From: Adineta vaga
Lineage: Eukaryota > Animalia > Rotifera
NCBI GenBank assembly: GCA_021613535.1
Contig: CP075494.1
Span: forward strand, 2,914,001 to 2,978,000
Reading direction: 5' to 3'
Length of the DNA: 64,000 bases
Shown here piece after piece: positions 8,878 through 51,211 of the stretch. Within the stretch, counting starts at the first letter, position 1, and every line of letters begins with the position of its first letter. The notes beneath the pieces were generated by a model. The model was not told the origin of the DNA and made no database searches. It saw only the letters and a program-made list of their open reading frames with translations. Position numbers and translations under genes: made by a program.

Positions 8878-9522
8878 TCAGTTTTGAATAAAACGCACTT
8901 GAACACTTTCACCTATGTATGATTGAATCTTTTCTCCTAATATATGAAAAGCCATTGCTTCCAGACATTTTTTGTTTTCTTCATCGTTCAATTTTGCTAA
9001 AACTTTCTGAATTTCTTTATCATTTCCGATATTGAATAAATCGTACCAAATACCGAGAGGAAAAAGAATTGCTGCAAAAGGAAACAAAGGAATTGCCAAT
9101 AGGAAAAACCGGGTCACTGGAAATGGAGAATTTGGACGTACAGTAAATGTTTTTTCCATCGAAGCGATTAAAATCTTGTGTTCATCGGTTGTATTTGTTT
9201 TTCTTCGACTTGTAACAAAAATTGAAACAGATATATGAGTTTTAGTACCAGTAATTAAAGCTTTGGCCATGTTTGTCCCTTCTGATATAAATTTTAATCG
9301 TTGAATATAATTCTTAACTTCTTCATTGGCATTTTTATGTTGTTCAAGTAAAGTTTCTATATATTTATCCATATGCGAATGTTTAATCGTATTTGTAACA
9401 ACTTCGAAATCATCTTGTTGTCGATCAATATATTTGTTTTCAAGCAAACGATAAGCTTGTTCAACCAAATTATTATCTACTGGTATATTCACTACTAAAG
9501 GTTGACCGATTGAAGATGCCAT
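8878..9522 (-). CDS. Intronless protein of unknown function, paralog A (carries an extra hydrophobic segment)
   Basis: 214-aa ORF sharing PLVVNIP, DEHKILIASM, KLN-E--KKCLEAM, LGEKIQ and VRFI with the ORF at 9891-10493. Confidence 0.75.
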   Translation of the reverse strand: MASSIGQPLVVNIPVDNNLVEQAYRLLENKYIDRQQDDFEVVTNTIKHSHMDKYIETLLEQHKNANEEVKNYIQRLKFISEGTNMAKALITGTKTHISVSIFVTSRRKTNTTDEHKILIASMEKTFTVRPNSPFPVTRFFLLAIPLFPFAAILFPLGIWYDLFNIGNDKEIQKVLAKLNDEENKKCLEAMAFHILGEKIQSYIGESVQVRFIQN

Positions 9523-9890: not shown

Positions 9891-10493
9891 ATGGCAAGCG
9901 CGATTATTCCAGCTACGACATCAACTGTTCTACCTTTGGTAGTGAATATACCAATTGTGAATCAAGATATGGTTAAAAAAGCATTCACTTTATTAACAAA
10001 TCGTCGTGTAAAACAAAGTGAAGAACATTTTCTTATTTCTACTGAAACTATTGATCATGCCGATATGAAAGAATACTCAGAATTACTTTGTGAACAATAC
10101 AAAGATGCTGATAAAGAGGTACATGATTATCTTGTACGATTACATTTAAATAAAGAAGGAACACAAGTAGCAAAAGCAATTATTGTTGGTACAAAAAATG
10201 AATTTTCAATTTCACTTATTGCAGTAAGTCGACAAAAAATCAATGGCAATGATGAACATAAAATTTTAATTGCTTCTATGAAAAAAAAAGTACAGATGTC
10301 AGCAACATGGAATCTATTTGCAACATTATTTGGTATTCCAACTCAAGAACAAAAAGAATTAGAAAATATTGTATGCAAGTTAAACAATGAAGATAGTAAA
10401 AAATGTCTTGAAGCTATGGTTTTACAAGCATTAGGAGAAAAAATTCAACAATTTATGGGTAGTAATGTAGAAGTTCGATTTATCGAAAAGTAG
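9891..10493 (+). CDS. Intronless protein of unknown function, paralog B
   Basis: 200-aa ORF colinear with paralog A and divergently oriented. Confidence 0.75.
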   Translation: MASAIIPATTSTVLPLVVNIPIVNQDMVKKAFTLLTNRRVKQSEEHFLISTETIDHADMKEYSELLCEQYKDADKEVHDYLVRLHLNKEGTQVAKAIIVGTKNEFSISLIAVSRQKINGNDEHKILIASMKKKVQMSATWNLFATLFGIPTQEQKELENIVCKLNNEDSKKCLEAMVLQALGEKIQQFMGSNVEVRFIEK

Positions 10494-11006: not shown

Positions 11007-11951
11007 TTATGATGATGTTGACACGATCCGATTGGAACAACCATTGATTATTTTCTTTATAGGCGTTTTGATTGCATCTGTAAACTGAAATAAAGTAATC
11101 ATCACAAATGCTAATGATATATTAATAAATGCATAAGCAATTCGAAAATGATATGTTGGTGGAGTAAGGAAAAATGAAGTTAATATTAACAATACATAAG
11201 GAATTTTAATTGCAAATAAAATCATGACAAGTATGGTTGTTCGACGAACCATTTTCAGTTCTTGTTGTGTACGAAGTAAAGTATTTGTAACTATACCACG
11301 TTTATTTATTCGATGAACATATAGAACTAATTTAATATAGATAACTGTAAGTAACCAAACTGGAGTTATATAAACACAAAATGCGGCATAATTGATTGAA
11401 AATGAAAGTCGAAGTGGTAGTTGACAGATTTGGTTGGAAACATTATAAATGATTTCATGAGTTAACATAAATGGAATAGGAAATAAAAAAGCAAATATCC
11501 ATATTAAACAAATAAGTGATATTAATGTTCGAGCAGATTGCCAAGATAAACGACTTGGATGAATAATAGTAATATATCGATAGATCGATTGTAATAAATA
11601 AGAATAGTTTTGTAATGCACATGCACTGTAACTTAAATATCCTCGAAATACACAAAATGAATCTTCATATTTTATTTGTTTAAGATCATTTTCTAATGTA
11701 AAGATAGACATCCATAAGATATTACCTCCCAAGATAATTTCACACAAACACAAATTGGCAACTAATATCATTGGAACTGTATGACATGCTTTATCAAAAA
11801 CTACAATCAATAAACCAATTATTGCAAGTCCAACAACTATGATATTACAAATAATTGACAATACATCCAGAGAAATTAACCATAACTCAACTGTTGTTGA
11901 AATCGAATTATTTATCGATGCTAATGGTATTAAGAACTCTGTTGTATTCAT
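11007..11951 (-). CDS. Rhodopsin-like (class A) 7TM GPCR
   Basis: Seven hydrophobic segments, C in TM3, YRY (DRY-like) motif and ECL2 Cys. Confidence 0.85.
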   Translation of the reverse strand: MNTTEFLIPLASINNSISTTVELWLISLDVLSIICNIIVVGLAIIGLLIVVFDKACHTVPMILVANLCLCEIILGGNILWMSIFTLENDLKQIKYEDSFCVFRGYLSYSACALQNYSYLLQSIYRYITIIHPSRLSWQSARTLISLICLIWIFAFLFPIPFMLTHEIIYNVSNQICQLPLRLSFSINYAAFCVYITPVWLLTVIYIKLVLYVHRINKRGIVTNTLLRTQQELKMVRRTTILVMILFAIKIPYVLLILTSFFLTPPTYHFRIAYAFINISLAFVMITLFQFTDAIKTPIKKIINGCSNRIVSTSS

Positions 11952-17688: not shown

Positions 17689-17751
17689 TTTTGAGGACGC
17701 GGGTGTGGATTAAGAGTGAAGTATCACCCACACCCTCAAGATTTGGTATAA
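17689..17751. repeat. Telomere-repeat mini-palindrome between convergent genes
   Basis: TTTTGAGGACGCGGGTGTGG...CACCCACACCCTCAAGA. Confidence 0.7.
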
Positions 17752-19189
17752 ATTATCATTATAAAATCATTCAAAGTTAAAATCAAACTTAAGCCATCGT
17801 GTTTTGAAAAGGTAAATATTCACTTCTATAGTATGGATTTTCGAGACGATATTTGATTGATGGTTTCCTTGTTGATGATGTCAAATGAATCGTTTCTAGA
17901 GTATCTTGTAAATGATGAGCAATATTCATAACAGTTTCGGATGATGATGTACGTGAACATTCTTGATAAGTTGTTTGGCATACTCGATCCATTTTATCAA
18001 AATCGTTTAAGAGACTTCCAACATCTTTCGACATAAGTCGATGATGAAGATCAAGTGTTATATCAGTTTTCTTTTGTAAAATATTTAATAATTGTTCAAT
18101 TACTTGAAGATAAGCAGTAGCTAAATTTTTCTTTTTATTTTCATCTTTAAATCGAATTGATTGAGCTACACCTAAATAAAAACTTTACATTTAACAAACA
18201 AATTACAACTAAATATGAAAGATTTCTTACTGTTAACAATTCGCACCTAAACAGACACACAAAAAACAATTGAGAGAAATTTCAATAATTTTAATAACTT
18301 ACAAAACGCCATAATCGAAAAGAAATAAATAATAAAGATATTTCCGCAAGAACATTACTTTTAAATAGAAGATATAAATCAATAATGAATGAAACAACGA
18401 CAATGATTGTATCTAACCATTCCATTTTTTGATGACGAATATTCCACCATTGTCTTCCAAATGCTAAAATTTTCATAATCATTTCAAATAAAAACACAGA
18501 TAATAAGACTAATGAACAAATATGAAGAATTTTATGTATCAAGTCTATTTGATCATCATCATTTTTTTGTTGTAAATCGTACGGATAGAAAGAAAGTTTT
18601 AAATGACAAGGTTTTCGAAGTTTAATTAAATCTAACATGATTTCAGCAATAACAAGTAAACAATCAATAATAACAAGACTAACTATGATTACATGGAAAG
18701 CAGCTTGATCAACAAGATCAATAATTTGATGCTGAAATTGATAATCAACATTCCACCATCGACTAAAGATTGAAGAATTATTTTTATTTGTGACTTTTGT
18801 TTTTTGTTGTGATGATAATAATAAATCATTAGTTGGATCATTATTTTTTTTTTTTTTGGTAACAAAGCTTTATTGTAAAAAAGAACAACACTGTAACATA
18901 AAGTCAACGGAAGGTATTGTACTTCTACATAAGCTGGAGTAGAGAAAAAAAAAAGGACACATGACGTATGTCTTTTGTCCGTGACATAGTAATAAGAACG
19001 AGAAAAATTTTATATGCCAATAGTGAGTGTAGATGGGGTGACGCGTGTAAAGTCTTACATATGTGGTAGAAGAAGAAAAAGAAAAAGAAAAAAGAAAACA
19101 GAAGATATAGTGGTACTATATGGATAGATTGGAGAGGAAGAGAAAAGAAGCTGGATTGTATGTGACATGTTTTAAATCAGCAAATATAT

Positions 19190-19510
19190 TGACTCGATTT
19201 CATATTGCATATAAGAACGAGCAAAGAATTTACTGGATATTGTAAGGATCAGCAAAGACGTTGACTCGACATCATATTGTATATAAGAACGAGCAAAGAA
19301 TTTACTGGATATTGTAAGGATCAGCAAAGACGTTGACTCGACATCATATTGTATATAAGAACGAGCAAAGAATTTACTGGATATTGTAAGGATCAGCAAA
19401 GACGTTGACTCGACATCATATTGTATATAAGAACGAGCAAAGAATTTACTGGATATTGTAAGGATCAGCAAAGACGTTGACTCGATATCATATTGTATAT
19501 AAGAACGAGT
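19190..19510. repeat. 72-bp tandem repeat (about 4 near-perfect copies plus degenerate flanking copies) in the LINE 3' UTR
   Basis: Unit GCAAAGAATTTACTGGATATTGTAAGGATCAGCAAAGACGTTGACTCGACATCATATTGTATATAAGAACGA. Confidence 0.95.
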
Positions 19511-19783
19511 AAAAGAATTTGCTGTATACATGAATCGGTTTAAAGATTGGCTCGATATTATATTATATATAAGAATGCGATCAATAAATAACTGAATAGA
19601 ACGAAAGAACGATACAGCATATAGATTGAATCGACTTCTTATTTTGTATAAGAACGAGTTAAACGAAGTAGCTGAATAGTATATTTGATTGCGATATATC
19701 GTTTTTTACATCGATTCGACTGACACAAGAATAGTCTATTCTCTCGATGTTACTATTATATGTAATGGTTGGTGATTTCTTTT

Positions 19784-22474
19784 TTAAATTTTGTCTAAGA
19801 TGCATTGTAGATGATTCTTCAGTGTAATGTCGTTGTTTGTTGTTGCCTTTTGAAGTGTATGTTTAAGTAGTCCTATTGCATAATCTTTGATTTTTGGAAT
19901 GTTGCTGATCTTGTGGATATATTTGACAGATGTATATATGGGTAGTCCGAGTGCAGCTCTAATTGCTTTATTCTGCATGATTTGTAAACGGTCCCATACT
20001 TTTTGATCAGCAGTAAGGAGAATAGGATGTCCATAAATGATAACTGTGCGTACAATTGATTTGAAAATATTTATCATCGTCTTGTTGTTGGGTTCATATG
20101 CTGTTCTCGAAAGATATCGAAGTAGACCGATCCGAGGAGCAATCTTGCTTTCAATATGTTCGAGATGTGCTCGCCATTTTAATCTTTTATCTATAATTAC
20201 ACCCAAGTAACGTGTGGAGTCCAGTGGTTTGATGATGGTGTCTTCAACTTTAACTTTCACTGGATTCTTGTAGTGTTTTCTTGGATGTATGCTGAAGTGT
20301 ATCAGCTCTGTCTTAGTTGGTTGAAGTTTTAATTTCCATGACTTGCACCAACTTTCGAATGCATCTATGGATTGTTGTAATCTGGTGTTAAGATTTGTTA
20401 AGGTGTTGCCAGATGTCCATAATGCAGTGTCGTCGGCGAACAACCCATGTTCTGTATGAGTTGGTATTCCATTCATCGAATCTGCCGTATACATAATATA
20501 AAGTAATGGTGATAACGGAGATCCTTGTGGTGTACCGCTCTTCAGATTAAACGGACGTGATAATATATTTTCGATTTCAATTGCAGCCGTTCTATTGCTT
20601 AAGAATGAGATCAGATAGTTGATGATGAAACAGGGAAGACGTAGATCATTAAGCTTGTATATCAAACCATCGTGCCATACCGAATCAAATGCGGCTTTGA
20701 TGTCGAAAAGAATGACAGCTGAGTGACGTCGTCGACGTGGTCGTCTAAGTTGTCCTGCAGCGTATCTTTCTAATCGCACGATGTTGTATATAGTGCTTTT
20801 ACCTGGTCTAAATCCGGCTTGATGTTGTGGTAAGATGTTTCGTCGTTCAAGTTCGAGCATTAAACGTTGTTTGATTATTTTCTCCAATAGTTTGCCTAGG
20901 CAACTAAGGAGACTAATCGGTCGATAGCTAGACGGTTGTTGTTTGTCTTTCTTTGGCTTTAATAGAAGAATAATATTAGCCTTTTTCCACATTGCTGGAA
21001 TATAACCTTGTTTCAAAATTGCATTAAACAGATTTGTTAGATGCTGTACCAGTAATTTTGAATGATTCTTCAAACATCGGTTATGAATGTTGTCTGGACC
21101 AGTGGAGCTATTTCTAAGTTGTCTTATATGATTTTTGACTTCTTTTTCTTTGATTTGCTTCCACTTTGGTGTGTTTGAAGAGGTTATAGTTTTACTTTTG
21201 ACTTTGTTTGCTTGGCGTGTTACTTGATCATGAAGTGGCAACGTATCAGCAGTGTGAGAGTAGACTTCATTTTCGAAGTAATCTGCAAATAAGTCTGCTT
21301 TCTCCTTGTCTGATGTTGCAGTTGTATTGTTGTATTTCATGATGTTGGCGTAGGTTTGCTTGATCCTTTTGTTGTGGAACTTGCGCACCGTCAGCCAAAC
21401 TTTGTCCGAATACATTTTCTTATGGCATAAAGATGACATTAACTTGTTGAAGTTATTTCTTCTGTCGTTTCTAAGTGAATTTGTAAGCAAGACTTTGGAA
21501 TTGTAATATAGATGTTTATCTAAGTTGTTTCCAGTCTTCTTCCATTTTCGATATGCTTGATGTTTTTGTTTTATCAGGCTTATCGATACTTCACTTGGTG
21601 TATACGTTCGGATCATCTGCTTTGTTTGTGGAACGGCTTCTTTTGTTGCTTCTAGTATACTAGTGGTAATGAATGATGTATATTCTTCTATGTCTGCTGT
21701 TGAATCTAAATGATGATCATTTTTCCACAGCATCAGTTGTTGATCTAACTTGCACCTAAATTTTGACCATTTTGCTGCTTTGAAATTAAATAAAATTCTT
21801 GACGAAGCCGGTTTGGGTTCAGCTCCGCAAGGAATATCAAATGTTAATGGTTTATGGCCATTTAATGCACCGATTGTTGGATGAGTCTCAACGTTTGATA
21901 TGAATGAAAGAAGTGGTTGACTTGCTAGAATCCAATCTAGTTTAACTTCATAATCATTTTTTTCGAAAGTTGGACTATCATCGTCGACACAATCAATAAG
22001 ACCATCTTTAAATAATTCTTGCAGCTGTCTTCCTCTAGCATTAGCTTGTTGTGATCCCATATTATATAATGTTGCATTAAGATCACCCATGATAATGCAG
22101 TTGTTGTTGACGTTATAAAGTTCGTGGAATAAGTTGATATCGATCTTTGCTTTTGGTGGTACGTAAATGGAGGATATTAGTATTGATTTGAATGATTTAG
22201 TTCGAATCTCTACTGCTATCGCTTCATTCTTGCAGGTTGTTTTGTTTAGTACTTCTTGACACTTGATATGTTGTTTCACTGCTAGTAATACTCCACCCCC
22301 AGCTTGTCCTATTCGATCATTTCTGAAGATGTTATAACCAAAAAGCGTGAATGGTCTTTCGCTCTTTAGATTAGTTTCATTAACAGAGATAATATCGTAT
22401 TTGGAGAATCTGGCTAGGAGTTCATCTTTGTGTTTGGTAATTGAGTTAATGTTGATATGGCATAAACTAAGCAT
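19784..22474 (-). CDS. LINE ORF2: AP endonuclease + reverse transcriptase
   Basis: NIN, VNET, GDLN and LDW endonuclease motifs; YRPISLL, QAGFR, DIKAAFDSV, PQGSPLSP and FADD RT motifs; intact 896 aa. Confidence 0.95.
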   Translation of the reverse strand: MLSLCHININSITKHKDELLARFSKYDIISVNETNLKSERPFTLFGYNIFRNDRIGQAGGGVLLAVKQHIKCQEVLNKTTCKNEAIAVEIRTKSFKSILISSIYVPPKAKIDINLFHELYNVNNNCIIMGDLNATLYNMGSQQANARGRQLQELFKDGLIDCVDDDSPTFEKNDYEVKLDWILASQPLLSFISNVETHPTIGALNGHKPLTFDIPCGAEPKPASSRILFNFKAAKWSKFRCKLDQQLMLWKNDHHLDSTADIEEYTSFITTSILEATKEAVPQTKQMIRTYTPSEVSISLIKQKHQAYRKWKKTGNNLDKHLYYNSKVLLTNSLRNDRRNNFNKLMSSLCHKKMYSDKVWLTVRKFHNKRIKQTYANIMKYNNTTATSDKEKADLFADYFENEVYSHTADTLPLHDQVTRQANKVKSKTITSSNTPKWKQIKEKEVKNHIRQLRNSSTGPDNIHNRCLKNHSKLLVQHLTNLFNAILKQGYIPAMWKKANIILLLKPKKDKQQPSSYRPISLLSCLGKLLEKIIKQRLMLELERRNILPQHQAGFRPGKSTIYNIVRLERYAAGQLRRPRRRRHSAVILFDIKAAFDSVWHDGLIYKLNDLRLPCFIINYLISFLSNRTAAIEIENILSRPFNLKSGTPQGSPLSPLLYIMYTADSMNGIPTHTEHGLFADDTALWTSGNTLTNLNTRLQQSIDAFESWCKSWKLKLQPTKTELIHFSIHPRKHYKNPVKVKVEDTIIKPLDSTRYLGVIIDKRLKWRAHLEHIESKIAPRIGLLRYLSRTAYEPNNKTMINIFKSIVRTVIIYGHPILLTADQKVWDRLQIMQNKAIRAALGLPIYTSVKYIHKISNIPKIKDYAIGLLKHTLQKATTNNDITLKNHLQCILDKI

Positions 22475-23925
22475 CGTTGCTGCTTGTTTTAAGTGTTTTC
22501 TTGTCGTTTATAGATGCATCAGGAGAGTTGTTGGAAGAAAGGGCTCTCTTGTTTGTATTGGATCCTTCTTTTGTATTTTGTGCGTCTTTTGACGTAGTAG
22601 GAGTTGATGGCATAGTAGGTTTATTTGAAGTGACATTCTCTGTTGTAGACGATTTGTCAGCTTCACTCTGTTGTTTTTTTGGTTTTGGTTTGATGATCTT
22701 AACTGCTTGACTTTGTTCGTTGGAATCAGAGTCTGAATCAGTTAATATATATTTTTCTTCATTATTACGATCGAGGAGTCCGAATGATTTTTCGATCTTC
22801 TTGATCTTCTGATGTAGTGCTTTGAATAGTCGATTGGTAGTTTTTTCGATGATGGTTTCCATTTTGCTGGTAAGAGCATTAATGATATCGTCGAATAAAT
22901 TGTCCGTTAATAGTTGTTTTTTGTGTTTGGTTGAATTGTGATAGAGGTGGGAAGTCATGTGTGCTGTAGATTGATGGTGCTTGTGTTACTTGTTTGCTTG
23001 TTGTTGCATATTGGTTAACCATGTTTTGCATCTTCTTTTCTTGTTCTCTATAATGTGAACATTCTTTGGAAGTAGCAATATGATTACCTTTACAGTTGTA
23101 GCACTTGACTGCGTCATCTGTAACAGTACATTTGTCGTTGCTATGATTTTCACCACATCGACTACATACTTGTTGCTTGGTTTTGCAGTATTTGGCTACA
23201 TGGTTGTATTTTAAGCAAATGTAACATTGCACCGGTTTGGAATTTTGTGTGGCTGGTTCAGCGGTGAAGTGCATGCAATCCACTTGTAAACCAGTTTGCA
23301 CAAAGATATTTCGATTTGTTGCATCGCTAAATGATATCTTGACTGTTCGTGTTGGAGTCTTACCATCTTTGCTTGTTAATCGAATAACTTCTGTTACTTC
23401 AAGACCAACGTTCTTTAGTGCTTCAGTTATTCGATCGTTTGGTAGTTCTAGATCGACTCTTTTTACGAAGGCGATCTTTTCTGTGTCCTTGATTCTTTGT
23501 ATAGATCTTGGAACGTATACCGTGGCTGATGGTTGACCGTTTGACGATAATATTGATGAAAAGTCGTTTAATATGTTGTTGAACGATTTAACATCTCTTG
23601 CATATAATGTGAATATTCCATTTCGTCCAAGTTGGATGTCATGGATATTGACTTCAGCAAGATGTTGCTTCAATATATCATTTAGCTGCAATTTGTTTAA
23701 GTTAACACCCTCTAGAATAAGAGGGGCGATACTAAATGTTGGTTGGCTTGATTTTAAAGCATATGGTCCTGCTTTGCCATCTTGTGTTGTTCGTTGTGGG
23801 CTTTGTATGCTTTGTGAGCTTTGTGGCCCTTGTTTTCGTTGTGTGGTGGTTGCTCTTTGTTGGTTGTCCACGCTGTGATAGCGTCTCTGTTGACCACCGC
23901 CACCCCTTCCTCTCTTGGAAGGCAT
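22467..23925 (-). CDS. LINE ORF1 (gag-like, three CCHC zinc knuckles), split by a 1-bp frameshift at ~22917-22922
   Basis: CYICLKYNHVAKYC, CSRCGENHSNDKC and CYNCKGNHIATSKEC. The C-terminal coiled-coil part (22467-22958) is in another frame, and its stop overlaps the ORF2 ATG. Confidence 0.9.
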
Positions 23926-24967: not shown

Positions 24968-26342
24968 TTACATATTCAAAATTGATGAAAAAATCATGAA
25001 AATGAAAAAATATCGTTTCGAATAAGTTGTAGCAGATGATCTAGGAGTTGTTGTCGATATTCCAAATGGTACACATTGGTAATAACGTTGAATTTCAAGA
25101 ATATCTATAGCAGTTAAATTAGTTGGTTCACCAATAGTAACGCTAACATTCTTTGTTGGAATCATTGTCAAAGATCCATTTATAGTAAATGAAGTAAGTG
25201 GATAATGCATAACTGATCCATAATCATAAGGTGTATCAAGATCATAAACTAGATTTTCAGTATATTTTTTAAATTTATCGATTTTATCTAAAAATGATAA
25301 GTTTTCTTAATTATAAATCTTGTTTTTAAATTTTCAAAAACCTTTTTGAATATTTTCCCATTCAATTCTAAGATATAAATCACGATCAGGTCTTAATTGT
25401 TCATGACCAAATCCTTAATTCAAAAAAATTTTTTGTTCGAATGAGAAAAGAAAATAATATTTTCTACCTAATGTATGAAGTAGTTCATGAAGAATAATTC
25501 CAATTTCCATACAACTACTAGTCGATGAATGTTCCAAAGTTATTCGATTAAAACCCAATCCTTTTCCAATCTATATAAAAAAGAATTCTTCGAATTTCTA
25601 TTTAAATTCGTACATACAGTTGATGAACATCCTGTGCCATTTTGTATAATAAGATAATTATAATCGAATTCGAATTGACGTTGAAATTGAATACATAATT
25701 TATCATCTATTTTTGTTTTTTCTTCGATTTGTTTCATTGCTTCTTGAATAAGATTGACATGAATTTCAGCTAAAAATCAAATGAAAATAGTTTTTCTTGT
25801 TATCAAATTTATTATACGAACAAAAACTTGAATCGATATAATAACGGACAGTACCATCGTACCATTTTGGATTTATTTTCACTGCGACTCCTCGACTTTG
25901 CTATAAAACAACAGAGAAATATTTTATATTTAATTTAAGGAATACATACGATCATAGTTTCGTCAAGCATTATTTCATCGTCTAAATTTTACCAAAGATT
26001 TATTTTGATAAGATATAATAATTATTATAAAAGATAGTATACTAACTTGTTTCTATCGTTTGTTGTTTTAAGAATACGGAATCATCTTCAATATTCTAAA
26101 TCGTAATTACAAAATAGAAAACTTCTAGATTTTAGATAAATGATGATTACTTTTGAAATATCATTTTTTTCCAACAATAGATTTGTCTGTATTTCCTTCC
26201 TAAATATTTGTCATAAATAAATAAAATTATCTGAAAGTTTTTCTTCTTACCATTCTAATTCATATTTTGATGTCGATGGCATTTCATACGACTTCGAAAT
26301 CACATAATAATATGTTATTAGTATATAATAAATACAATTCAT
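24968..26342 (-). CDS. Astacin-family (M12A) zinc metalloprotease, multi-exon, hydrophobic C-terminal tail
   Basis: HELLHTL|GFGHEQLRPDRD across an intron; YDYGSVMHY Met-turn; GTGCSS; N-terminal signal-like segment starting at 26342. Confidence 0.88.
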
Positions 26343-27641
26343 TGCTTCGAATAAACTTTATACTAGTGAGATTCTTTTATATTGCAATATGCTTATCTCC
26401 TCTATAGTGGCTGCCATGTGACTCAATGATTTTATCACTAACATATAAATGACAAAGTTAATATTTGATCTGTCTTATTCATTCTATTTTCTGACGTAGT
26501 CGCAGTCATTCTGTTACCACGCAGTATATCCACAGTAAAAAAAAAAGAATTTCATATCTTTTTCAGGATAGTTACGATTATTTTTTTTTGGCATTCGAAA
26601 AGATTGATACTAGGTATCTAAACGTACTCTAGACTGGAATTTCACGTTTCTAATTGTTATGGTTACAATGATATGTTTGTCAATAAAAACAAGAGAAAAA
26701 AAGTCGAAATATTATCAATAATCTTTAATTATTTCTTGAATACGTTGCAACATGAATTGTATTGCTTGAAAAGACATTTAGTAGTGGATTCGGTATTTTT
26801 TCCATCATTTCGTACTCTGCCCCCATTGATCATCCTATGCTTTTTTATCATTTACACTAATATCTCCTTTGTGACTTTATTTGAATAAAACTATTCATTC
26901 ACGCTCAGAACATGACACGTTATTCGAATACGACCAAAACTCAATATTATATCAAAATGATGATGTGTTTGACTATGTTTAATGTTAATATATCTGGTGG
27001 TACAATCATAGCTGAGAATATTTTGTTATCATATAATTCATGTACATGTAGGTTGTTCTATCGATCATTCACAACAACTTTCATTTGCATCGTTTGTATT
27101 TCAAGAACAAGGTCATTCTTTACAAGATGAACGACATAAACGACATTGATTTGTATTAGTTTGAGATATCGTTAGTAACGCATTCCTTGATTCAAGTTCA
27201 AGAACAATATCAGAAATCTGAAATTATTTTCATCGTTTTTTTTCTTCTAAAATATGTTCGATGTTCTTTTTGTACAAATAGTTACACGAACGTTTGTAAA
27301 GAATGTACATTACTTCTCGATTTAATTAAAAATACCATGATTCATTAGAAACGCGTTAATCCTTGTTGTTCTGATCTCATTATTTCCATTAGAAATCTTT
27401 CTCTTAAAACTTTCTGGCAGTACAAAGAAAGAAGTATTCCTATGTTATTGTTTGTTATTTCATTTCTTTCTCATTCGCTATAATTTTTCTTGACCTTAAC
27501 GGACGATATTTCGTAAGCCAAGTTGACTTTTTTTTTCATTAAATTTCATCGACGGACGAAAATAAATAAATAGAAAAAGAAAATTGTTGACCTTTAACAA
27601 CCAATGAAAGACATATCTTCTGTTTCATTCTGCTATGTGCG

Positions 27642-27648
27642 TATAAAA
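27642..27648 (+). promoter_or_regulatory. TATA box of peptide gene 1 (a 5'-UTR intron follows at ~27700-27754)
   Basis: TATAAAA about 130 bp upstream of the ATG, conserved in copy 2 (29677-29683). GTAAGT...TTTAG lies downstream. Confidence 0.55.
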
Positions 27649-27777
27649 GCAGAAGATATTTGTATAAACATCAAACTGTTCAACAATCAACAATTCGAAG
27701 TAAGTTTCCCATGTCGAATTTATCGATGTGTGTCATATGTTTGATCTTATTTAGTTTATAAATAAAAATACAACATA

Positions 27778-28077
27778 ATGCATCGGTCACTAATTTTTCT
27801 CACTGTTTTGGCTCTTATTGTGGTAGTTATCTGTGCCGAGGAGCCAATGATCGAGAATATCGAAACGGTGGATGAAGTTCCTTTGACAACAGCACAGACG
27901 TTTCTTGTCGGTGGACACAATGAAGACGGAGATGATCCAGTTGACATCGGCAAACGTTATTGGAATCAATGGGAACGTCGTCAAGATTATCGTCAAGATT
28001 ATCGACAAGATTATCGACAAGGTCAGCGTCAAGATTATCGACAAGATCAGCGTCAGTATCACCGGCGACGAGGGTAA
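27778..28077 (+). CDS. Secreted prepropeptide 1 (signal, acidic pro-piece, KR, RQDY-repeat mature peptide ending RRRG)
   Basis: Hydrophobic signal, E/D-rich pro-region, dibasic KR site, AATAAA at ~28153. Confidence 0.85.
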   Translation: MHRSLIFLTVLALIVVVICAEEPMIENIETVDEVPLTTAQTFLVGGHNEDGDDPVDIGKRYWNQWERRQDYRQDYRQDYRQGQRQDYRQDQRQYHRRRG

Positions 28078-28540
28078 TCAGCTCAACTAAATTGTCACAA
28101 AATAATTGGTGTTTGTATCTAATCAACCAATCTTTGTCAAATAATTCTTGTTAATAAAATTTTGAAAAAACGGAGTTGAAAATCTCTGCAAAATAAAAGG
28201 TTTTACCAAATAGAGGGTGTGGGTTGAGAGTCTAGTACCACCGAAACCCAAAAGAAACAATCGTTAAATGATAAACCATTTCACATGGACACGATTCGAT
28301 CTCAGTATATGCATATCGAAATAACAAAAACTACGTCTTTCGTTAATTGTACAAATATTCTGTGACTCGTGTGATGATTCTTAGTATGTGGAATAGTTAT
28401 TTTTGTTTTTGATTTGAAATACTTAGCTCGAACGGATAATTTAGTCAAATTAGATTTACAAAGAAGAAAAAAAAAGTAACGAATTGTTCAAATGAGAGAA
28501 AAATACTTGATGATCTTCATATATATATATTTATGTTATA

Positions 28541-28587
28541 TCTTGAGGGTGTGGGAAATTCAACAGACCCACACCCACACCCTCTTC
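28541..28587. repeat. Telomere-repeat mini-palindrome
   Basis: TCTTGAGGGTGTGGG...CCCACACCCACACCCTC. Confidence 0.8.
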
Positions 28588-29036
28588 ATTGAATTAGTGA
28601 TTAGTCGCTACGATGTTAGAAAAACAATATTCCCTATATGAGTATGGTGCCGATCAAAATATTTTGGAACTAAACCGTTTACATATATTTAATGTAGAGA
28701 CCGACAGTGTATTACACAAATCCTGGACGCTGAGAGACGCAGCCTATGATTTAAGAAAATCTTTTCGTGAACATTTATCAGAAATAATTTTGCATTGGAT
28801 TAAAGTTGATGGCCAAAACAAAAACACTGACAATGACAATAGTGAGGAGGAGGATGGCATCGACGATGACAAACAATAAACAAAAAGATAAACGTGATTC
28901 TGAAGATTTTTCTGTGAAACTGCGGAGATGACAGTATGATTGTGAGGGCAGAACAGTGAAACGTCTGGTCTCTGTCATTCTCAAGAATTTTAATTGATAT
29001 CAATACGATGCGACCAAAGAAGTGCATTGTCTACTT

Positions 29037-30665
29037 GCTGAGAATATTTGGTTATCATATAATTCAAGTACATGTAGGTTGTTCTATCGATCATTCACAA
29101 CAACTTTCATTTGAATCGTTTGTATTTCAAGAACAAGGTCATTCTTTACAAGATGAACGACATAAACGACATTGATTTGTATTAGTTTGAGATATCGTTA
29201 GTAACGCATTCCTTGATTCAAGTTCAAGAACAATATCAGAAATCTGAAATTATTTTCATCGTTTTTTTTCTTCTAAAATATGTTCGATGTTCTTTTTGTA
29301 CAAATAGTTACACGAACGTTTGTAAAAAATGTACATTACTTCTCGATTTAATTAAAAAAAACATGATTTAATAGAAATGCGTAAATCCTTCTTATTCTGA
29401 TTTCATTATTTCCATTAGAAATCTTTCTCTTAAAACTTTCTGGCACTACAAAGAAAGAAGTATTCCCATGTTATTGTTTGTTATTTCATTTCTTTATCAT
29501 TCGCTATAATTTTTCTTGACCTTGACCGACAATATTTCGTAAGTCAAGGGGACTTTTTCCCATCAAATTTTCATTGACGGGTGGGAAGAAATAAATAGAA
29601 AAAGATAAAGTTTGACCTTCAACAACCAATGAAACACAATGAAAGACATAGCGTCTGTTTCATTTTGCTATGTGCGTATAAAAGCAGAAGATATTTGTAT
29701 AAACATCAAACTGTTCAACAATCAACAATTCGAAGTAAGTTTCCCATGTCGAATTCATCGATGTGTGTCATATGTTTGATCTTATTTAGTTTATAAATAA
29801 AAATACAACATAATGCATCGGTCACTAATTTTTCTCACTGTTTTGGCTCTTATTGTGGTAGTTATCTGTGCCGAGGAGCCAATGATCGAGAATATCGAAA
29901 CGGTGGATGAAGTTCCTTTGACAACAGCACAGACGTTTCTTGTCGGTGGACACAATGAAGACGGAGATGATCCAGTTGACATTGGAAAGCGTCACTGGAA
30001 TCGATGGGAACGACATGAACATCGTCGTCATGAACATCATCATCATCATCATCATCATCGTCGTCAATACCGCCGAGGATGGTAACCAGTTTAACTGAAT
30101 TGCCGCGAAATACTTGTTATTCATATCCAATCAAGCAAACTTTGTCAAATAATTCTTGTTAATAAAATTCAAAAAAAAGGAGTCGGAAATTCTGATTTGA
30201 ACAATTTTGCTCATACCTCGGAGAAGTTGTATGGTGATAAAGAGACACGATCATATGACAATTTACACAGCATGTGAAGTTTTTGGTAGATTAAATAAAA
30301 AGATTGTGAATGATTCGATGGTACTTATATGGATATAAGAAGCATTATAGTATGGTATAAATGTTTTTCAGCTAGCATACACTAGGATAGTTACTTGAAA
30401 TTTTGATATTTTGTGAAATATATTCGTTATTTGTTAAAAAATTAAAAAGAGAGAAGAAATGATACCATTTTTGTATATACTATCCTTTATGGAAAGGACA
30501 GAACTCGAACTTGAGGGTGGTGGTTTCAGAGTGTAGCATCACCCAAACCCACAATCACACCCTTAGCTCCAATAGTTAGTTTATTCAAATTGGATTTGCA
30601 AAGAAGAAAAAAAGTAACGAATTGTTCAAATGAAAGAAAAATGCTTGATGATCTTCAGATATTTA
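29037..30665 (+). repeat. Tandem segmental duplication, copy 2
   Basis: Aligns to 27009-28530, with a divergent interval in the 3' flank. Confidence 0.9.
29813..30085 (+). CDS. Secreted prepropeptide 2 (His/Arg-rich mature peptide)
   Basis: The first 60 aa are identical to peptide 1; mature part HWNRWERHEHRRHEHHHHHHHHRRQYRRGW. Confidence 0.85.
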   Translation: MHRSLIFLTVLALIVVVICAEEPMIENIETVDEVPLTTAQTFLVGGHNEDGDDPVDIGKRHWNRWERHEHRRHEHHHHHHHHRRQYRRGW

Positions 30666-31491
30666 TGTTATAGCTAAGCACATATTAACCATTGCAAAGG
30701 TTTTAAGCGAATTATTAGCAGGAACGTATGCATTGAGAGTACAACGAAATGATGTAAATATAGGTTTGTGAAAATTTGTATATCCATTAAATGTTAAATA
30801 AGATGCTGAAAATACGTGAAGAATAAAAGGAAAGAAGGTACTACCGATACGTTCCATAGTCATTGGATCACCATAACTATTGTATGATGTACAGCTTTTA
30901 CTGATAGTACCCGTGTCATATCTACTTACAAGATGGTTATTGACGATAACGTATGAATTATCCCAATCAAGATTTTTATAGTCATTCGGTACTGTTGTCA
31001 TAGACGGTAGATCATCAAATGTTATGAAAGTATTTCCATTCGTACAATCTATTTTATCAATAATGAAAAAATCAGATTAGTTTGTATTTTTAAAAAGAAA
31101 CATATGTCTTCATATTCGAATTCAAACAAGATTTATTTCTCTACAAAGGTTGTGAAGTTTACCTACGACCGCGGTTGATATTGTCGTCGTAGTTGGTGCT
31201 GATTTGACAAAAAAAATGAACAAAAGTGTTAGAAAAAGACTGCACAGGTTCCCAATTATGGGAGATATATTTCCGTTGTGTTATTCCAGATTCATGACTT
31301 TCATCTTCCGCTCAGGAAAAAGTGACTACTCAGTTTCTTATACAAAAAAAAGAAATTACACATTTCCCACGATTTGAACGTTATAAAGCTGACGGAGACG
31401 CGAATAATTAAGGATTGATTAAAACTCACCAGGTGGAATTCGTTTTCCAAACTTAGCGATCACAGTCACAATATTTGATTGAGTTACCATA
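30663..31491 (-). pseudogene. Degenerate type-II membrane protein with an 'ITFDDL...' extracellular domain
   Basis: TM-like LCSLFLTLLFIFFV and a Thr-rich exon, then DCTNGNTFITFDDLPSMTTVPNDYKNLDW. It ends at the duplication boundary. Confidence 0.4.
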
Positions 31492-35980: not shown

Positions 35981-37050
35981 TCAAGAAATGTCTTCAAGTT
36001 CTTGATTATGATTGATTGAGTCCTCTGAATTTTTAGGTACAATACTATTATTCTTCAAACCACACCATAGTTTAAATTGTTGCCAAGCTTTTTTATACAT
36101 GATATACTTCACTTGCCGACGGAAACGTGATGATGAACCGATAAAAACAAAAAAGCCGATCTACAACAAAGGAACATCATCAAAACTATAACTTTTCTAG
36201 AACAAATTTTTACCGTATAATTGGCCGTAGACAGAGAAAATGTGATCGCTTGAATTAATCGTACAATGATGTATCTCGTCATGTCACTTTTTGAAATAGG
36301 ATAGGTCGTAACATAAATCCGACAGATATTATAAGGTAGTGCCAAACAAACAAAGAAGATAACACGTATGAAAACCATTGCTGTCATTTGTCGATCTAAT
36401 CGACGACGAACAATAGGCAATTGTCGACGAACGATTCGTCGAACATTACGATATGCTAATAAACTAAAAAATGATGCAATTGCAATAGGTAATAAACCAA
36501 TTAAAATCGGATAATAAAAAACTGTTGTATATTGAACAAATACTGAATTTGATATGATACATCCAACTGATGGTCGAATGTCAAAAAATAGTCCAAGTAT
36601 AATGCTATGAATAGTTGCAATAGAAACTATTACAAAACCGACATAGTAAGTCAATTTTATTGTACATATTTGTCGTATATAATGACGATAATTTGTTGAA
36701 AAATATTGATCAACAGTAGCAGAACATATCATGTAATATGTAGTAACAGCAAATATTGGACCTAAAATGTATCGTAATTTACACCAAACGGGAAAACGTC
36801 CTGTTCCGTCATCTCCATAGATCCATGTGAACACGGTTAGAGTTATAAAGATAAAATGAAAAAGAAAATTAGAAATTGATTCGAAAATTATATAGAAAGC
36901 ACATCGATTATCTCGAAAGAGTTTCAATTGACTAAAAACAAGAATATTAATTGCATTACCAACAATTCCCAATATAAATATAGTACAACCACTGTAAAAT
37001 GTGTATTGTGTCACGAAATCAAGAACTTTTGTGAAAAACGATGAAGACAT
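35981..37050 (-). CDS. Rhodopsin-like 7TM GPCR (intron in TM7)
   Basis: GN in TM1, CK in TM3, DQY motif; the spliced tail IGFFVFIGSSSRFRRQVK ends at TGA 35981. Confidence 0.85.
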
Positions 37051-38993: not shown

Positions 38994-40061
38994 TTAAAGA
39001 TGTGAATTTTGTTCGAGTTCAACACTTGATATTGGTGGAACATTACAAGGACCAATTCGATTGCTACGATGAGGATAAAATCGTCTTTTCCATTGTTGCC
39101 AATACTTTTTTCTCAACACATATTTCACTTGCCGTCGATATGGTGCAGATGACAAGTAGAAGATATAAAAATTGACCTAGAAATATGAGTATGTTATTGT
39201 TAATAATGAAATACAAATGTACAATTTTACCGCATAATTGAGATATAAATTTGAATTAATAATTGCTTGAATTAATCTTTCAACAGCTATTCGCATAGTA
39301 TCTGTCGGATGAATCGAAAGATTAATTGAATAAATACGATAGATGACAAAAGGTGTATTAGTAATAATGTGAAAACAAACACGAAGAAGAACAAGTTTAG
39401 TTAACTGTCGGTCAAGACGACGACGAATCATAGGCACTTGTCGTCGAATAATACGACGAACATTACGAAAAGCTAAGATACTAAAAGAACCTGAAATCAC
39501 AATTGGCAAGAGACCACTTAATATAGGATAGAAAAAATATGAATAATATCGAATTAATATCGAATATGAAGCAGCACAATCACCTGGTTGTTTAGCATTA
39601 AAAAACATTCCAAATGCAAGTGAATGACAAAATGAAAAACATGTTCCACTAATGATTAGATATCGAGCTAATCTCATTGAACTTCTTTGTCGAAAATATA
39701 CTGAATAACTTGTTGCAAGAAATTGATCAATTGCAGTAAAACATATTGTAGAAAATAAGATTAATACAAGTGTTTGTCCTATGATGATTCGTACTTTACA
39801 CCATATAGGAGAAGAATACCATATTTCAAAACCAGTTTGAACAGTTAATAGACGAAGAATAAAATTATATATCAATAAAGCAATATTTATAGTTGATTCA
39901 ACTGTTAAATAGAATACACATTGATTATTTCGATATATTTTAAGGTTTTTAAAGGTGAATATAATCAAAAAATTACCAAATATTCCTATAATAACAAAAA
40001 TAATCATAGTTGAGATGATATAACGCTCGGTAATCGTCGAAATCGCTGACGAAGATAGCAT
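38994..40061 (-). CDS. Rhodopsin-like 7TM GPCR, paralog of 35981-37050
   Basis: Shared RNVRRI.RRQ.P..RRRLDRQ loop and the same TM7 intron position. Confidence 0.85.
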
Positions 40062-41402: not shown

Positions 41403-43546
41403 TTACAACTTCTTTTTTACACGTTCGAGGTTTTGTCTTCGATTTACAAGATCAGGATGATTGTCAGGTAGCGAATGTTCTCCAATTTGTACAGCACGCT
41501 CATAAAATGAACAAGCTTTTAAATAGTCACCCATGTTATCATATAACAAACCGATGTTGTTAAAGGATGAAGCCAAACCAGGATGATTTGAAGGAAGTGA
41601 TTGCTGTTTAATTGCAAGAGCTTTTTCATAACATGAAAGTGCTTTTGGATAGTCAGCCATTTTGTCATATACCACACCCATATTATTGTAGGATTGAGCG
41701 AGATCAGGATGATTAAGAGGAAGTGATTGTTGTCGAATTATAAGAGTTTTGTCATAATAGAAAAGTGCTTTTGCATACTCGTCCATATTTTTATAGACAA
41801 TACCGATGTTGTTGTAGGACACAGCTAAAGCAGGATGATTAGAAGGAAGTGATTGCTGTAGAATTGCAAGAGATTTTTCGTGAAATGAAAGTGCTTTTGG
41901 ATATTCACTCATATCGTTATACATCAAACCGATGTTGTTGTAGGATGAAGCCAAATCAGGATGATTTGGAGGAAGTGATTGTTGCAGAATTGCAAGCGCT
42001 TTTTCGTGATATGAAAGTGCTTTTGGATAGTCAGCTATATTTCTGTATACTACGCTGACATTGTTGTATGAATTAGCCAAGTTAGAATGATTAAGAGGAA
42101 CATTTTTCTCTTCAATTTCAATTGATTTTTCAAAGAATGTTATTGCCTCTGGATATTTTCCTTGATTACGTTTGATCGAACCAAGCTGATGAGAAAGTGG
42201 TGCTTTTTCACTCTCCTCCGTTGTTTGATCTAGTAACATTCGATAAACCTCTTCGGCCTTGTCATTTTGACCCAATTTACTTAGTACCTGACCCAATCTA
42301 TACCATCCTTTGGAGTATGGGAAACTTTCTTCTCGAATACGATCAGTAAGTGCACTTAATTCTTTGTCGTTATCACTTGTAAGTGTTAAATTTACTTCAT
42401 ACAATCTGTTACTGGCATCCATTGGTTTGATATCATGAACACGAAATACACTGTGCATGGAAAACAACACTTCATCTTCGTTTGGGAAATAACTAATACT
42501 ACGAATAGAAGCAAACGGTATTGTTGTTTGTCTTGGGTCAATTTCCATTATAAACAGAACTCCTACTAAATCTGGATTTGTTGTTGGATTTTGAGCAAAA
42601 GGCAGTGAAACTTGTAGAACCTTGCTGGTGGACAGGAAGTTGTTAAATGACATTAATCCTCCTTGTGTTTGTTTTAGTTGTTCAAAATCGGACTTTGATA
42701 AACCTTGTCCACGATAAACTGTAAATATCTGAGCAGTATATTGTTCCTTGTGCACTTTCGCAATGTGTCGGTAGAGATCATTAATAAAGAATCCCATTCG
42801 TGTGATAATATCACCATTTATCTCTCTCAATGCACGATTAAGCATAGGATAGAGAACACTTTCCTTCGTATACCACCATATAGGTGTGTTTCGATGATAT
42901 TTTTGTACCAATTGTTCGATATTCTTCAGTTCTACTTTATTGTCAATCAATGCATCCGGACAATATTGAACAAATTCTTCAATGTGTGCATTGTCAAAAT
43001 CGATGCTTAATAATATTTCTTTCAGGATTTGTGTGTACATAAAAGATGGATCGAGTTGATCTAATCTCTTGCCGGATGCCATGAAGCTCATAGACATTGC
43101 ATTTTGTTCACATTGTTGAGCTGCTTGTTTAAGACCTTGACAGATGGATTTTATTTCTATGAAAACTCCCTTTATTTTGAGCCATTCTTTAGCCCATTTT
43201 TCATGCCGCATCTTGTTGCCACAAAGGATGAAAATCGAATCTACTTGGAACATGTCATGCACACGCGGTACGATATATTGCCCAAGCCTTACGGTCTTTT
43301 ATCGTTTCGATGAATTCAATGCATTGATCAATATCTATGAATATATTAACATCAGTGACAATACGTTGTAATTGAGTGATTATGTTCTGGCACTCTTCAC
43401 TATTGTCATCAATGTTGCTATCTAACCATATGAGAAGGACATTTTGCACATTTTGAATATCGATACATCGACGTTCACGTGCGTCTTTTGAAACTATGGA
43501 TGCGTGTTGAGTTGTATTGACGCTGCTTGCTTTGTTAGTTACCATT
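41403..43546 (-). CDS. ADP-ribosyltransferase (R-S-E type) + TPR-repeat protein, frameshifted near 43283 (possible pseudogene)
   Basis: VYRGQGL, FLSTS and EDEVLF motifs; 42-aa kinesin-light-chain-type TPRs (LPPNHPDLASSYNNIG); the N-terminal domain is in a different frame. Confidence 0.85.
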
Positions 43547-50272: not shown

Positions 50273-51211
50273 TTATCTCATGTTAGTAAAACAATAAGAA
50301 TATAATCTCTGTAAGATTTGCATTGTTTGTTGACGAAAAGATTTAGAAACAATGAAATAAACATAAAAAATCGTCGTTTGAGGAATATGTCTAATAAGAT
50401 AAAATAAACTGAATAGAAATTGTTCAAGATTATTTGTTGGATATTCTGTCAATTGTACATAAATATTAAAAGTAAGTATGATCGATGAACAAAACACATA
50501 AATTAAGATTTCAATAACAAGTATCTTAGCCATTTGACGATTTCGTTTTGGTTTATGAATATTTGTACATATTGAACCAGTAGCAACAACAGGATGAATA
50601 CGTGTTCGATATAAATTTCTCAATGTTAAAGTACCAAATATACTCAAAAAAATTAATGGACAAATTGAATTAAATATAAGTGAATTAAAAGTAGCAAATT
50701 TTCGATAATTCTCTTGTTTATAATAACACATTGAGAAACCCGGGAAAAGCTCATAAAAATCAGCAAAAATAATTATTTGAATATAATATAAAAGAATAAG
50801 AGTTGTAACGACAGTAATAGATATATAAGCCAAACGATGTGTACTACGTTGTCGTATCAATGCATTTGATGAAGTAAATAATGTACGATCCATTGAAGCT
50901 AAGACAAGATAATATGAAGATAAAACAATTGAGATTGTTCGAATATAATAATAGATTTTACAATTTATTATACCAAGAGTTGTTAAATCGATGGAGAAAA
51001 AATGAGTTAATAATGCTTGAAATAAATTTGTATATAAAACGATTAGATTGATGAAATTAAATACAAAAAGATAAATTGAACCAGGATTTTTTCGCATTGA
51101 TTTTTGAATAAATATAAAACAATTTAGAATACCACCAATAGTACCTAAACATAGTAGTGTAGGACCAACTATATCATATAAATGATGAATAATATTTGTA
51201 TAAGAACTCAT
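50273..51211 (-). CDS. Rhodopsin-like 7TM GPCR
   Basis: Seven TM segments, CK in TM3, MDR motif, SKSFRQ helix 8. Confidence 0.85.
   Translation of the reverse strand: MSSYTNIIHHLYDIVGPTLLCLGTIGGILNCFIFIQKSMRKNPGSIYLFVFNFINLIVLYTNLFQALLTHFFSIDLTTLGIINCKIYYYIRTISIVLSSYYLVLASMDRTLFTSSNALIRQRSTHRLAYISITVVTTLILLYYIQIIIFADFYELFPGFSMCYYKQENYRKFATFNSLIFNSICPLIFLSIFGTLTLRNLYRTRIHPVVATGSICTNIHKPKRNRQMAKILVIEILIYVFCSSIILTFNIYVQLTEYPTNNLEQFLFSLFYLIRHIPQTTIFYVYFIVSKSFRQQTMQILQRLYSYCFTNMR

What the first reader, a model, noticed from the sequence alone, without database searches (positions are those of the whole stretch)
27778..30085. Prepropeptide gene pair with an invariant pre-pro region and repeat-generated hypervariable mature peptides
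Seen in sequence: both genes encode the same 60-aa signal + acidic pro-piece + KR. The mature peptides share only a (Y/H)WNxWER start and an RQY..RRG end. One is filled with 12-bp RQDY/RQDQ repeats (39 aa, terminal Gly as a possible amidation donor); the other with CAT repeats (30 aa, 12 His, 8 Arg). Established knowledge: a conserved signal and acidic pro-piece with a dibasic site and a variable cationic mature peptide is the architecture of amphibian skin antimicrobial peptides and conotoxins, and His-rich cationic peptides such as histatins bind metals and are antifungal. Inference: an undescribed peptide family (antimicrobial, metal-binding or adhesive) diversified by microsatellite turnover.
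Basis: partly seen in the sequence, partly recalled or inferred. Interest (0 to 1): 0.8.

Follow-up and report, generated by a model that had tools for sequence, protein, structure and literature searches.

The report
Orphan rotifer secreted-peptide gene pair
Two neighbouring, transcribed genes of a bdelloid rotifer, with no relative found in the databases searched, share an identical front end, likely kept so by gene conversion, and are predicted to release two different repeat-built, positively charged peptides that likely serve in defence against microbes, although glue-like or signalling roles remain open.

Summary
A ~2.03-kb tandem duplication carries two ORFs (99 and 90 aa), identical over aa 1-60: hydrophobic leader, acidic piece (-11), G-K-R. 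The tails differ (RQDY repeats, 39 aa; His/Arg repeats, 30 aa), both +5. The host is Adineta vaga or close kin (neighbouring LINE). Contigs of public runs show untemplated poly(A) on both genes and a third variant of gene 1. No relative was found among 1.84 billion representative proteins or in Pfam, PDB, or metagenome and prokaryote scans. Three corrections: (1) the invariance also covers silent sites, UTR and core promoter (1/306 differences against 62/437 in flanks), so it points to gene conversion, not protein constraint; (2) the sign of purifying selection lies just outside that tract, on GKR-xWNxWER (pS 0.83, pN 0.07); (3) the tails have no aliphatic residue or Cys, so they are neither frog-type lytic peptides nor conotoxins, and only gene 1 ends in Gly. 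Best reading (0.45): histatin- or NLP-like non-lytic defence peptides. Rivals: adhesive or matrix peptides (0.25), neuropeptide or pheromone (0.18). Processing and function are untested.

The parts
27011..28188 (+). Copy 1 of the direct tandem duplication (upstream region, gene 1, 3' UTR)
   Evidence: blastn, 89% over 1189 columns to 29037-30194; alignment
29037..30194 (+). Copy 2 of the tandem duplication
27089..27300 (+). Upstream 212-nt run identical between the copies (likely conversion tract; not checked against reads)
27631..27947 (+). Near-identical tract from core promoter to codon 57 (1 difference); likely gene-conversion tract; partner ~29666-29982
   Evidence: contigs fork at its end
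27642..27648 (+). TATA-like box of gene 1 (gene 2: 29677-29683)
   Evidence: motif scan; function inferred
27700..27754 (+). Possible 55-nt 5' UTR intron (GTAAGT...TTTAG; gene 2: 29735-29789); splicing not shown
   Evidence: the one contig that reaches it (X9, 29735-29982) is unspliced
27778..28077 (+). Gene 1 CDS, 99 aa
   Evidence: X16 contig 27801-28175 with 0 differences
27778..27837 (+). Predicted signal peptide aa 1-20 (identical in gene 2, 29813-29872)
   Evidence: Kyte-Doolittle 9-residue windows up to 3.9; no SignalP available
27838..27951 (+). Acidic pro-piece aa 21-58, formal charge -11, ending in Gly
27946..27978 (+). Codons 57-67: I-G-K-R site and (Y/H)WN(Q/R)WER motif, under purifying selection
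   Evidence: 5 synonymous changes on 6.0 sites against 2 nonsynonymous on 27.0
27958..28074 (+). Predicted mature peptide 1: 39 aa, RQDY-type repeats, +5, terminal Gly
28153..28174 (+). AATAAA and poly(A) site of gene 1
   Evidence: A-tails behind 28174 in X9 and X17; genome there is not an A run
29813..30085 (+). Gene 2 CDS, 90 aa
   Evidence: X17 contig 29953-30189 with 0 differences and 0 gaps
29993..30082 (+). Predicted mature peptide 2: 30 aa, 12 His, 8 Arg, +5 without His, contains HExxH, ends in Trp
30161..30189 (+). AATAAA and poly(A) site of gene 2
   Evidence: 16-A tail behind 30189 in X17

Best explanation
Two transcribed tandem genes of a bdelloid rotifer share an identical leader and acidic piece, likely through gene conversion, and are predicted to be secreted and cut at Lys-Arg to release two different +5, repeat-built hydrophilic peptides that likely act in host defence without lysing membranes, in the manner of histatins or nematode NLP/CNC peptides. 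Shown: the duplication, the ORFs, poly(A) transcripts, the mosaic of identical and diverged DNA, and purifying selection on GKR-xWNxWER. Inferred: signal cleavage after Ala20; the -11 pro-piece masks the +5 tail in the secretory granule; a convertase cuts after KR; peptide 1 may be amidated at its terminal Gly; peptide 2 would bind Zn/Cu through its His run and HExxH, and peptide 1 would bind anionic microbial surfaces through Arg, Tyr and Trp. Conversion would keep promoter and secretion cassette in step, so the two peptides would be made together while their tails diverge through repeat expansion and point changes.
For: Architecture of signal, acidic piece, KR and cationic tail, as described for frog AMPs and alpha-defensins, where the anionic propiece neutralises the mature peptide (PMC7073735, passages). 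Both tails have formal charge +5 despite different length and composition. Codons 57-67: pS 0.83 against pN 0.074, Fisher p 5e-4, window chosen after the fact. Untemplated poly(A) on both genes. A third gene-1 variant in 2 of 4 runs laid has 16 substitutions and 6 gap letters over 188 nt (~8.5%, against 1.7% mean heterozygosity in PMC8494291, passages). Four of its changes alter residues (G82D, Q83R, Q91R, H95Y); they raise the charge by 1 and create two new RR pairs, which argues that inner RR pairs are not fixed cut sites. Histatins are His-rich and antifungal, carry a Zn-binding HEXXH, and damage membranes little (PMC4035769, passages). Clustered, repetitive, fast-evolving peptides first labelled neuropeptides proved antifungal in C. 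elegans (PMC2453101, PMC3409374, passages). Conversion: 1/306 differences in the tract against 62/437 in non-coding flanks, p 2e-14; 0 changes on 39.7 silent sites; longest identical runs 226 and 212 nt, first reached in 1 and second in 0 of 20,000 shuffles.
Against: No activity, induction, tissue or peptidomic data. The tails have 0 aliphatic residues and GRAVY about -3.1, and the best hydrophobic moment at 100 degrees is reached by 24% and 9% of shuffles, so the usual lytic mechanism is unlikely. Peptide 1 has 5 Asp and resembles no AMP found here. G-K-R is also the classic amidation-plus-cleavage signal of neuropeptides (own knowledge), and the best-conserved piece is a short Trp motif, which suits a receptor ligand. 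Tyr/Arg/Trp and His-rich repeats are also typical of wet adhesives. With no ortholog found, conservation across species could not be tested. The tandem layout and upstream tract were not checked against DNA runs.
Confidence: 0.45

Rival explanations
1. The peptides are parts of a secreted material (toe cement, mucus, cuticle, jaw or egg coat). The Tyr/Arg/Trp peptide would adhere or cross-link (DOPA or dityrosine) and might self-assemble through its R-x-D-x alternation; the His peptide would cross-link through metal; the acidic piece would help condense both in the granule.
For: Low-complexity repeats rich in Tyr, Arg and His. Repeats, DOPA, hydroxy-Arg and charge-driven coacervation are features of animal adhesives such as mussel fp-3 (PMC4275877, passages). 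A shared promoter tract would give joint expression (inferred). The likeness to ionic self-assembling peptides is from my own knowledge.
Against: Peptide 1 has only 2 Gly in 39 residues; a KR-released 4-5 kDa peptide is less usual for glues (own knowledge); a single-sequence AlphaFold model gives one helix at 54-98 rather than strands (weak, pTM 0.30).
Confidence: 0.25
2. A lineage-specific neuropeptide, hormone or pheromone precursor. The active product would be the short (Y/H)WN(Q/R)WE(R) peptide between KR and the next basic site, or the amidated acidic 37-mer before GKR; the repeats would be loose spacer.
For: GKR at 58-60, RR at 67-68 in gene 1 and RxxR at 64-67 in gene 2; purifying selection sits on this motif.
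Against: No repeated copies of one peptide between basic sites. No Pfam neuropeptide family hit at E<=1. The motif does not match the Adineta Wamides named in 10.1101/2024.07.20.604414 (passages). The constant +5 charge and the His run would be unexplained.
Confidence: 0.18
3. Secreted hydrophilic stress protectants or metal scavengers (desiccation, metal detoxification) with no defence role.
For: Extreme hydrophilicity and a His run. Bdelloid-specific genes of unknown function respond to desiccation and radiation (PMC10809525, passages). Bacterial RcnB-family proteins carry similar RQDY/His low-complexity stretches.
Against: No expression data link these genes to stress. The RcnB domain is absent, and the bacterial matches lie in the repeat only.
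Confidence: 0.09
4. The identical front ends are an assembly or polishing artefact.
Against: In one search the shared contig ends at 29982, and gene-2-specific contigs in 3 of 4 runs start at 29953 with 0 differences, i.e. the graph forks at the first difference. An X16 contig spans gene 1 from codon 8 to the 3' UTR with 0 differences. No second pre-pro version was laid at 85% likeness (contigs can drop variants).
Confidence: 0.03

Closest known systems
Histatins (human saliva)
   Same: His/Arg/Tyr-rich hydrophilic peptides of similar length from two genes; HExxH present in peptide 2; histatin 5 damages membranes little (PMC4035769, passages).
   Different: No sequence homology found. The rotifer precursors have a 38-aa acidic pro-piece and KR, and their tails are tandem repeats; activity unknown.
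C. elegans NLP-29 cluster and caenacins
   Same: Clustered, repetitive, fast-evolving small peptides, first taken for neuropeptides (PMC2453101, PMC3409374, passages).
   Different: No GGY/GGW triplets; induction by fungi untested; acidic pro-piece present here.
Frog skin AMP and alpha-defensin precursors
   Same: Signal, acidic propiece, dibasic cut and cationic mature peptide (PMC7073735, passages).
   Different: No homology; no aliphatic residue, amphipathic signal or Cys in the tails. Pre-pro identity here is a DNA-level tract that includes promoter and UTR.
Mussel foot protein fp-3 and tubeworm cement proteins
   Same: Small, Arg/Tyr-rich, repeat-bearing secreted proteins packed through charge interactions (PMC4275877, passages).
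   Different: Little Gly; DOPA and adhesive tissue unknown; no homology found.
Neuropeptide precursors (incl. Adineta Wamides)
   Same: Signal peptide, GKR and further basic sites.
   Different: No repeated peptide copies and no known C-terminal motif.

Membership tests
Frog skin AMP precursors | Signal + acidic spacer + KR + cationic peptide | tested here: met
   (signal inferred from hydropathy)
Frog skin AMP precursors | Homology of signal and propiece to the family | tested here: not met
   no such Pfam hit at E<=1; 0 hits
Frog skin AMP precursors | Amphipathic, hydrophobic mature peptide | tested here: not met
   0 aliphatic residues; moment not above shuffles
Conotoxins | Cysteine framework in the mature peptide (recalled) | tested here: not met
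   0 Cys in both tails
Histatins | His-rich cationic peptide with HExxH | tested here: met
   peptide 2: 12 His of 30, H-E-H-H-H; not met for peptide 1; the motif is easy to meet in a His run
Histatins | Sequence homology | tested here: not met
   the PDB matches of gene 2 lie on His runs, many probably His tags
Histatins | Antifungal activity and Zn binding | not testable with these tools
   needs synthetic peptides
Nematode NLP-29/CNC | GGY/GGW triplet repeats | tested here: not met
   sequence against PMC3409374
Nematode NLP-29/CNC | Induction by fungal infection in epidermis | not testable with these tools
   only contigs are served, which give no level
Neuropeptide precursors | Signal peptide and basic cleavage or amidation sites | tested here: met
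   GKR at 58-60 and further RR pairs
Neuropeptide precursors | Match to a known family motif | tested here: not met
   Pfam; Adineta Wamides differ (passages only; figures not seen)
Neuropeptide precursors | Neural expression and a receptor | not testable with these tools
   needs in situ work and receptor assays
DOPA-type adhesive proteins (fp-3) | Small, Arg/Tyr-rich, repetitive | tested here: inconclusive
   peptide 1: 11 Arg and 6 Tyr of 39, but 2 Gly
DOPA-type adhesive proteins (fp-3) | DOPA and adhesive-gland expression | not testable with these tools
   needs mass spectrometry and in situ work
Bacterial RcnB (possible horizontal origin) | RcnB domain PF11776 | tested here: not met
   present in L122, absent from both genes; pre-pro matches 0 of 131 loci

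The most novel reading that the evidence does not exclude
An animal two-payload secretion system: gene conversion keeps one promoter-plus-pre-pro cassette identical on two old paralogs and stops three codons before the cut site, so that a Tyr/Arg peptide and a His/metal peptide, each built from its own repeat, are made together as complementary halves of an antifungal or glue-like secretion. These would be the first gene-encoded defence peptides of bdelloids, missed so far because the genes are not in the annotation.
Probability: 0.2. Interest if true: 0.78.

Novelty: new variant of a known kind. Interest (0 to 1): 0.52.

Why it matters
Bdelloid defence has been studied mainly through horizontally acquired enzymes (PMC11258130, passages), and my ten paper searches listed no paper whose title or abstract start describes such peptides in rotifers. 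The genes appear to be missing from the annotated protein set, so gene-level expression studies based on it would not see them. They are short enough to synthesise, and existing infection and desiccation RNA-seq could be re-counted for them at once. The locus is also a clean warning: an invariant pre-pro region can come from gene conversion rather than selection.

Tried and rejected
Homolog searches, all blank: word-index searches with gene 1 (157 candidates, 0 at E<=1), with gene 2 aa 1-66 against longer proteins (20 candidates, 0 at E<=10), and with the two-gene alignment (163 candidates, 0); phmmer of aa 1-75 against 1.84 billion representatives (0 at E<=0.001); Pfam (nothing below E 0.33); PDB (1 weak match for gene 1; 28 for gene 2, best E 0.006, on His runs); ESM Atlas (best 0.77, lead level only, and no hit for gene 2). 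Prokaryote genomes: 14 of 196 stretches passed tblastn, and re-alignment shows RQDY low-complexity matches only; the two ORFs examined are a glycine-zipper and an RcnB protein, so a horizontal origin is not supported. No third copy lies in the window. No whole genome is held, so copies elsewhere were not counted. In one search the stretches between and around the genes had little or no cover (bins with depth, of 30: 8, 6, 11, 5); this is not used as evidence, and depths were not used to rank expression. The A-tail at 28198 lies behind a genomic A-rich stretch and was not counted. The AlphaFold model (one sequence, pTM 0.30) was not sent to a fold search, as it is helices only. Gene 1 motifs were absent from 12 of 16 supplements of PMC11258130 and the leader motif from a 13th; three files and one oversized file were not searched. 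Motifs of both genes were absent from the single held supplement of PMC10809525; unseen tables there may bear on expression. Earlier findings of the scan: none. Neighbouring GPCR genes were not taken as evidence for a signalling role.

Full report
Observation. Two + strand ORFs lie at 27778-28077 (99 aa) and 29813-30085 (90 aa). They are identical over aa 1-60, with KR at 59-60. The front has a hydrophobic leader (9-residue windows up to 3.9; cleavage after Ala20 is inferred, no SignalP was available) and a 38-aa piece of formal charge -11 that ends in Gly. The tails are 39 aa (R11 Q10 Y6 D5) and 30 aa (H12 R8 W3 E3), both formally +5. They are tandem repeats with different units: 12 bp x6.5, and 15 bp x3.1 with a run of 8 CAT codons. 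Only these 2 of 184 short ORFs in the window pass a filter for this architecture, set after seeing the pair. Gene 2 ends in Trp, so only gene 1 has a terminal Gly.

Host and context. The RT protein at 19784-22474 clusters with proteins named Adineta vaga AP-endonuclease/RT, so the window is from this bdelloid or a close relative. The genes sit in a direct duplication, 27011-28188 against 29037-30194, 89% identical. There is no third copy in the window, and no whole genome was held. Of 8 other window ORFs looked up, 3 are in the NCBI protein set letter for letter. The two peptides are not, and no relative of them was found at near or longer lengths. They are therefore probably unannotated.

Expression. 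Twenty of 24 listed runs hold part of the stretch. I laid 4 small runs, all contigs; two are guessed to be RNA and two are unlabelled. A-tails lie behind 28174 (X9, X17) and 30189 (X17), 16 and 23 nt behind AATAAA, where the genome has no A run. An X16 contig covers gene 1 from 27801 to 28175, and an X17 contig covers gene 2 from 29953 to 30189, including the CAT run, each with 0 differences. Contigs give no level or strand. A 55-nt GTAAGT...TTTAG stretch in the 5' UTR has the window's commonest length for such motif pairs (10 of 28 at 50-59 nt), but the one contig that reaches it is unspliced, so the intron is not shown.

Why the front is invariant. From the TATA box to nt 170 of the CDS the copies differ at 1 of 306 sites, against 62 of 437 in the proximal upstream region and 3' UTR (p 2e-14). 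There are no changes on 39.7 silent sites. A second identical run of 212 nt lies at 27089-27300, separated by a stretch with 12% difference. The longest and second-longest runs were reached in 1 and 0 of 20,000 shuffles. Selection on the protein cannot hold silent sites, UTR and promoter, so patchy gene conversion between old paralogs is the likely cause. Signatures of conversion are reported in A. vaga (PMC8494291, passages). An assembly artefact is unlikely for the transcribed tract, because the contig graph forks at the first difference in 3 of 4 runs. The upstream tract and the tandem layout were not checked against DNA.

What selection keeps. Just beyond the tract, codons 57-67 show 5 synonymous changes on 6.0 sites and 2 nonsynonymous on 27.0 (p 5e-4; window chosen after the fact). 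The GKR site and the WNxWER motif are therefore constrained, which is the best indirect sign of processing there. A third version of gene 1's 3' half appears in X9 and X17: 16 substitutions and 6 gap letters over 188 nt, with the gaps in the UTR. It changes four residues (G82D, Q83R, Q91R, H95Y). At about 8.5% it is far above the 1.7% mean heterozygosity and below the 13% between homoeologs. It may be a divergent allele or another paralog. X17 also holds a third version of the upstream region, in one contig of depth 4.1. No change in repeat number was seen, but repeats were partly skipped.

Relatives. None was found: 0 hits among 1.84 billion representatives, and nothing real in Pfam, PDB or the Atlas. 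The 14 prokaryotic matches lie on RQDY low-complexity stretches. Short genes are often unannotated, and no other rotifer genome could be searched as DNA, so 'orphan' is provisional.

Mechanism. I infer secretion, masking of the cationic tail by the acidic piece, and a cut after KR. The tails have no aliphatic residue or Cys, GRAVY near -3.1, and no hydrophobic moment beyond shuffles. They fail the tests for frog-type lytic peptides and conotoxins. In make-up they are closer to histatins, which bind Zn through HEXXH and kill fungi with little membrane damage (PMC4035769, passages). In genomic habit they resemble the clustered, repetitive NLP/CNC antifungal peptides (PMC2453101, PMC3409374, passages). 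I put non-lytic host defence at 0.45. An adhesive or matrix role (0.25) fits the Tyr/Arg/Trp plus His pairing (PMC4275877, passages). A signalling role (0.18) fits GKR and the conserved Trp motif, but no family matches. A single-sequence model predicts one helix over 54-98 and carries little weight.

Novelty. The precursor layout is a known kind; the family and its conversion-homogenised cassette with two repeat-built tails appear new. Ten paper searches (listings only, except the papers cited) showed no description of such rotifer peptides. The library lacks most subscription papers, and several supplements were not seen. Verdict: a real, expressed, probably unannotated peptide gene pair of untested function; interest 0.52.

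Noticed in passing
window 19784-23925 (-): LINE retrotransposon with intact-looking ORFs (gag-like 348 aa, a 163-aa ORF, APE/RT 896 aa); the RT is in a cluster named Adineta vaga AP-endonuclease/RT. A 72-bp tandem array lies at ~19176-19678 beyond its 3' end.
   Followed up: partly
window 28613-28879 (+): An 88-aa ORF with an acidic tail between the two peptide genes; no Pfam hit, not in the protein collection; possibly a transposon remnant (guess).
   Followed up: partly
window 28422-28543 and 30562-30675: A ~120-nt repeat (84%) downstream of each gene, perhaps the far edge of the original duplication; a ~40-nt element at 28213-28253, 30513-30554 and 17701-17741.
   Followed up: no
window 41403-43253 (-): ADP-ribosyltransferase domain plus TPR repeats, 616 aa; a host gene type that I recall as expanded in bdelloids.
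   Followed up: no
window 11007-11951, 36109-37050, 39177-40061, 50273-51211 (-): Several seven-transmembrane receptor-like ORFs; two were scanned and hit 7tm_1 weakly.
   Followed up: no
window 56519-57346 (-) and 57593-58654 (+): A divergent pair of LicD-family genes.
   Followed up: no
window 8878-9522 (-) and 9891-10493 (+): A head-to-head pair of related ~200-aa ORFs, both singletons in the NCBI set, with no confident Pfam family for the one scanned.
   Followed up: no
window 53680-54996 and 60159-60734 (+): Related secreted-looking proteins; the first has GGTSPTAPT repeats and a Thr run and no Pfam hit.
   Followed up: no
window ~24968-25737 (-): Astacin metalloprotease exons just upstream of the peptide pair; no link shown.
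   Followed up: no
window 29549-29561: One NF-kB-like GGGA...TTCC motif upstream of gene 2 only, in the diverged promoter stretch; may be chance.
   Followed up: no
L118:1028-1483 and L122:881-1777: Sphingomonad secreted proteins (glycine-zipper, RcnB) carry RQDY tetrapeptide repeats, apparently convergent with gene 1.
   Followed up: partly
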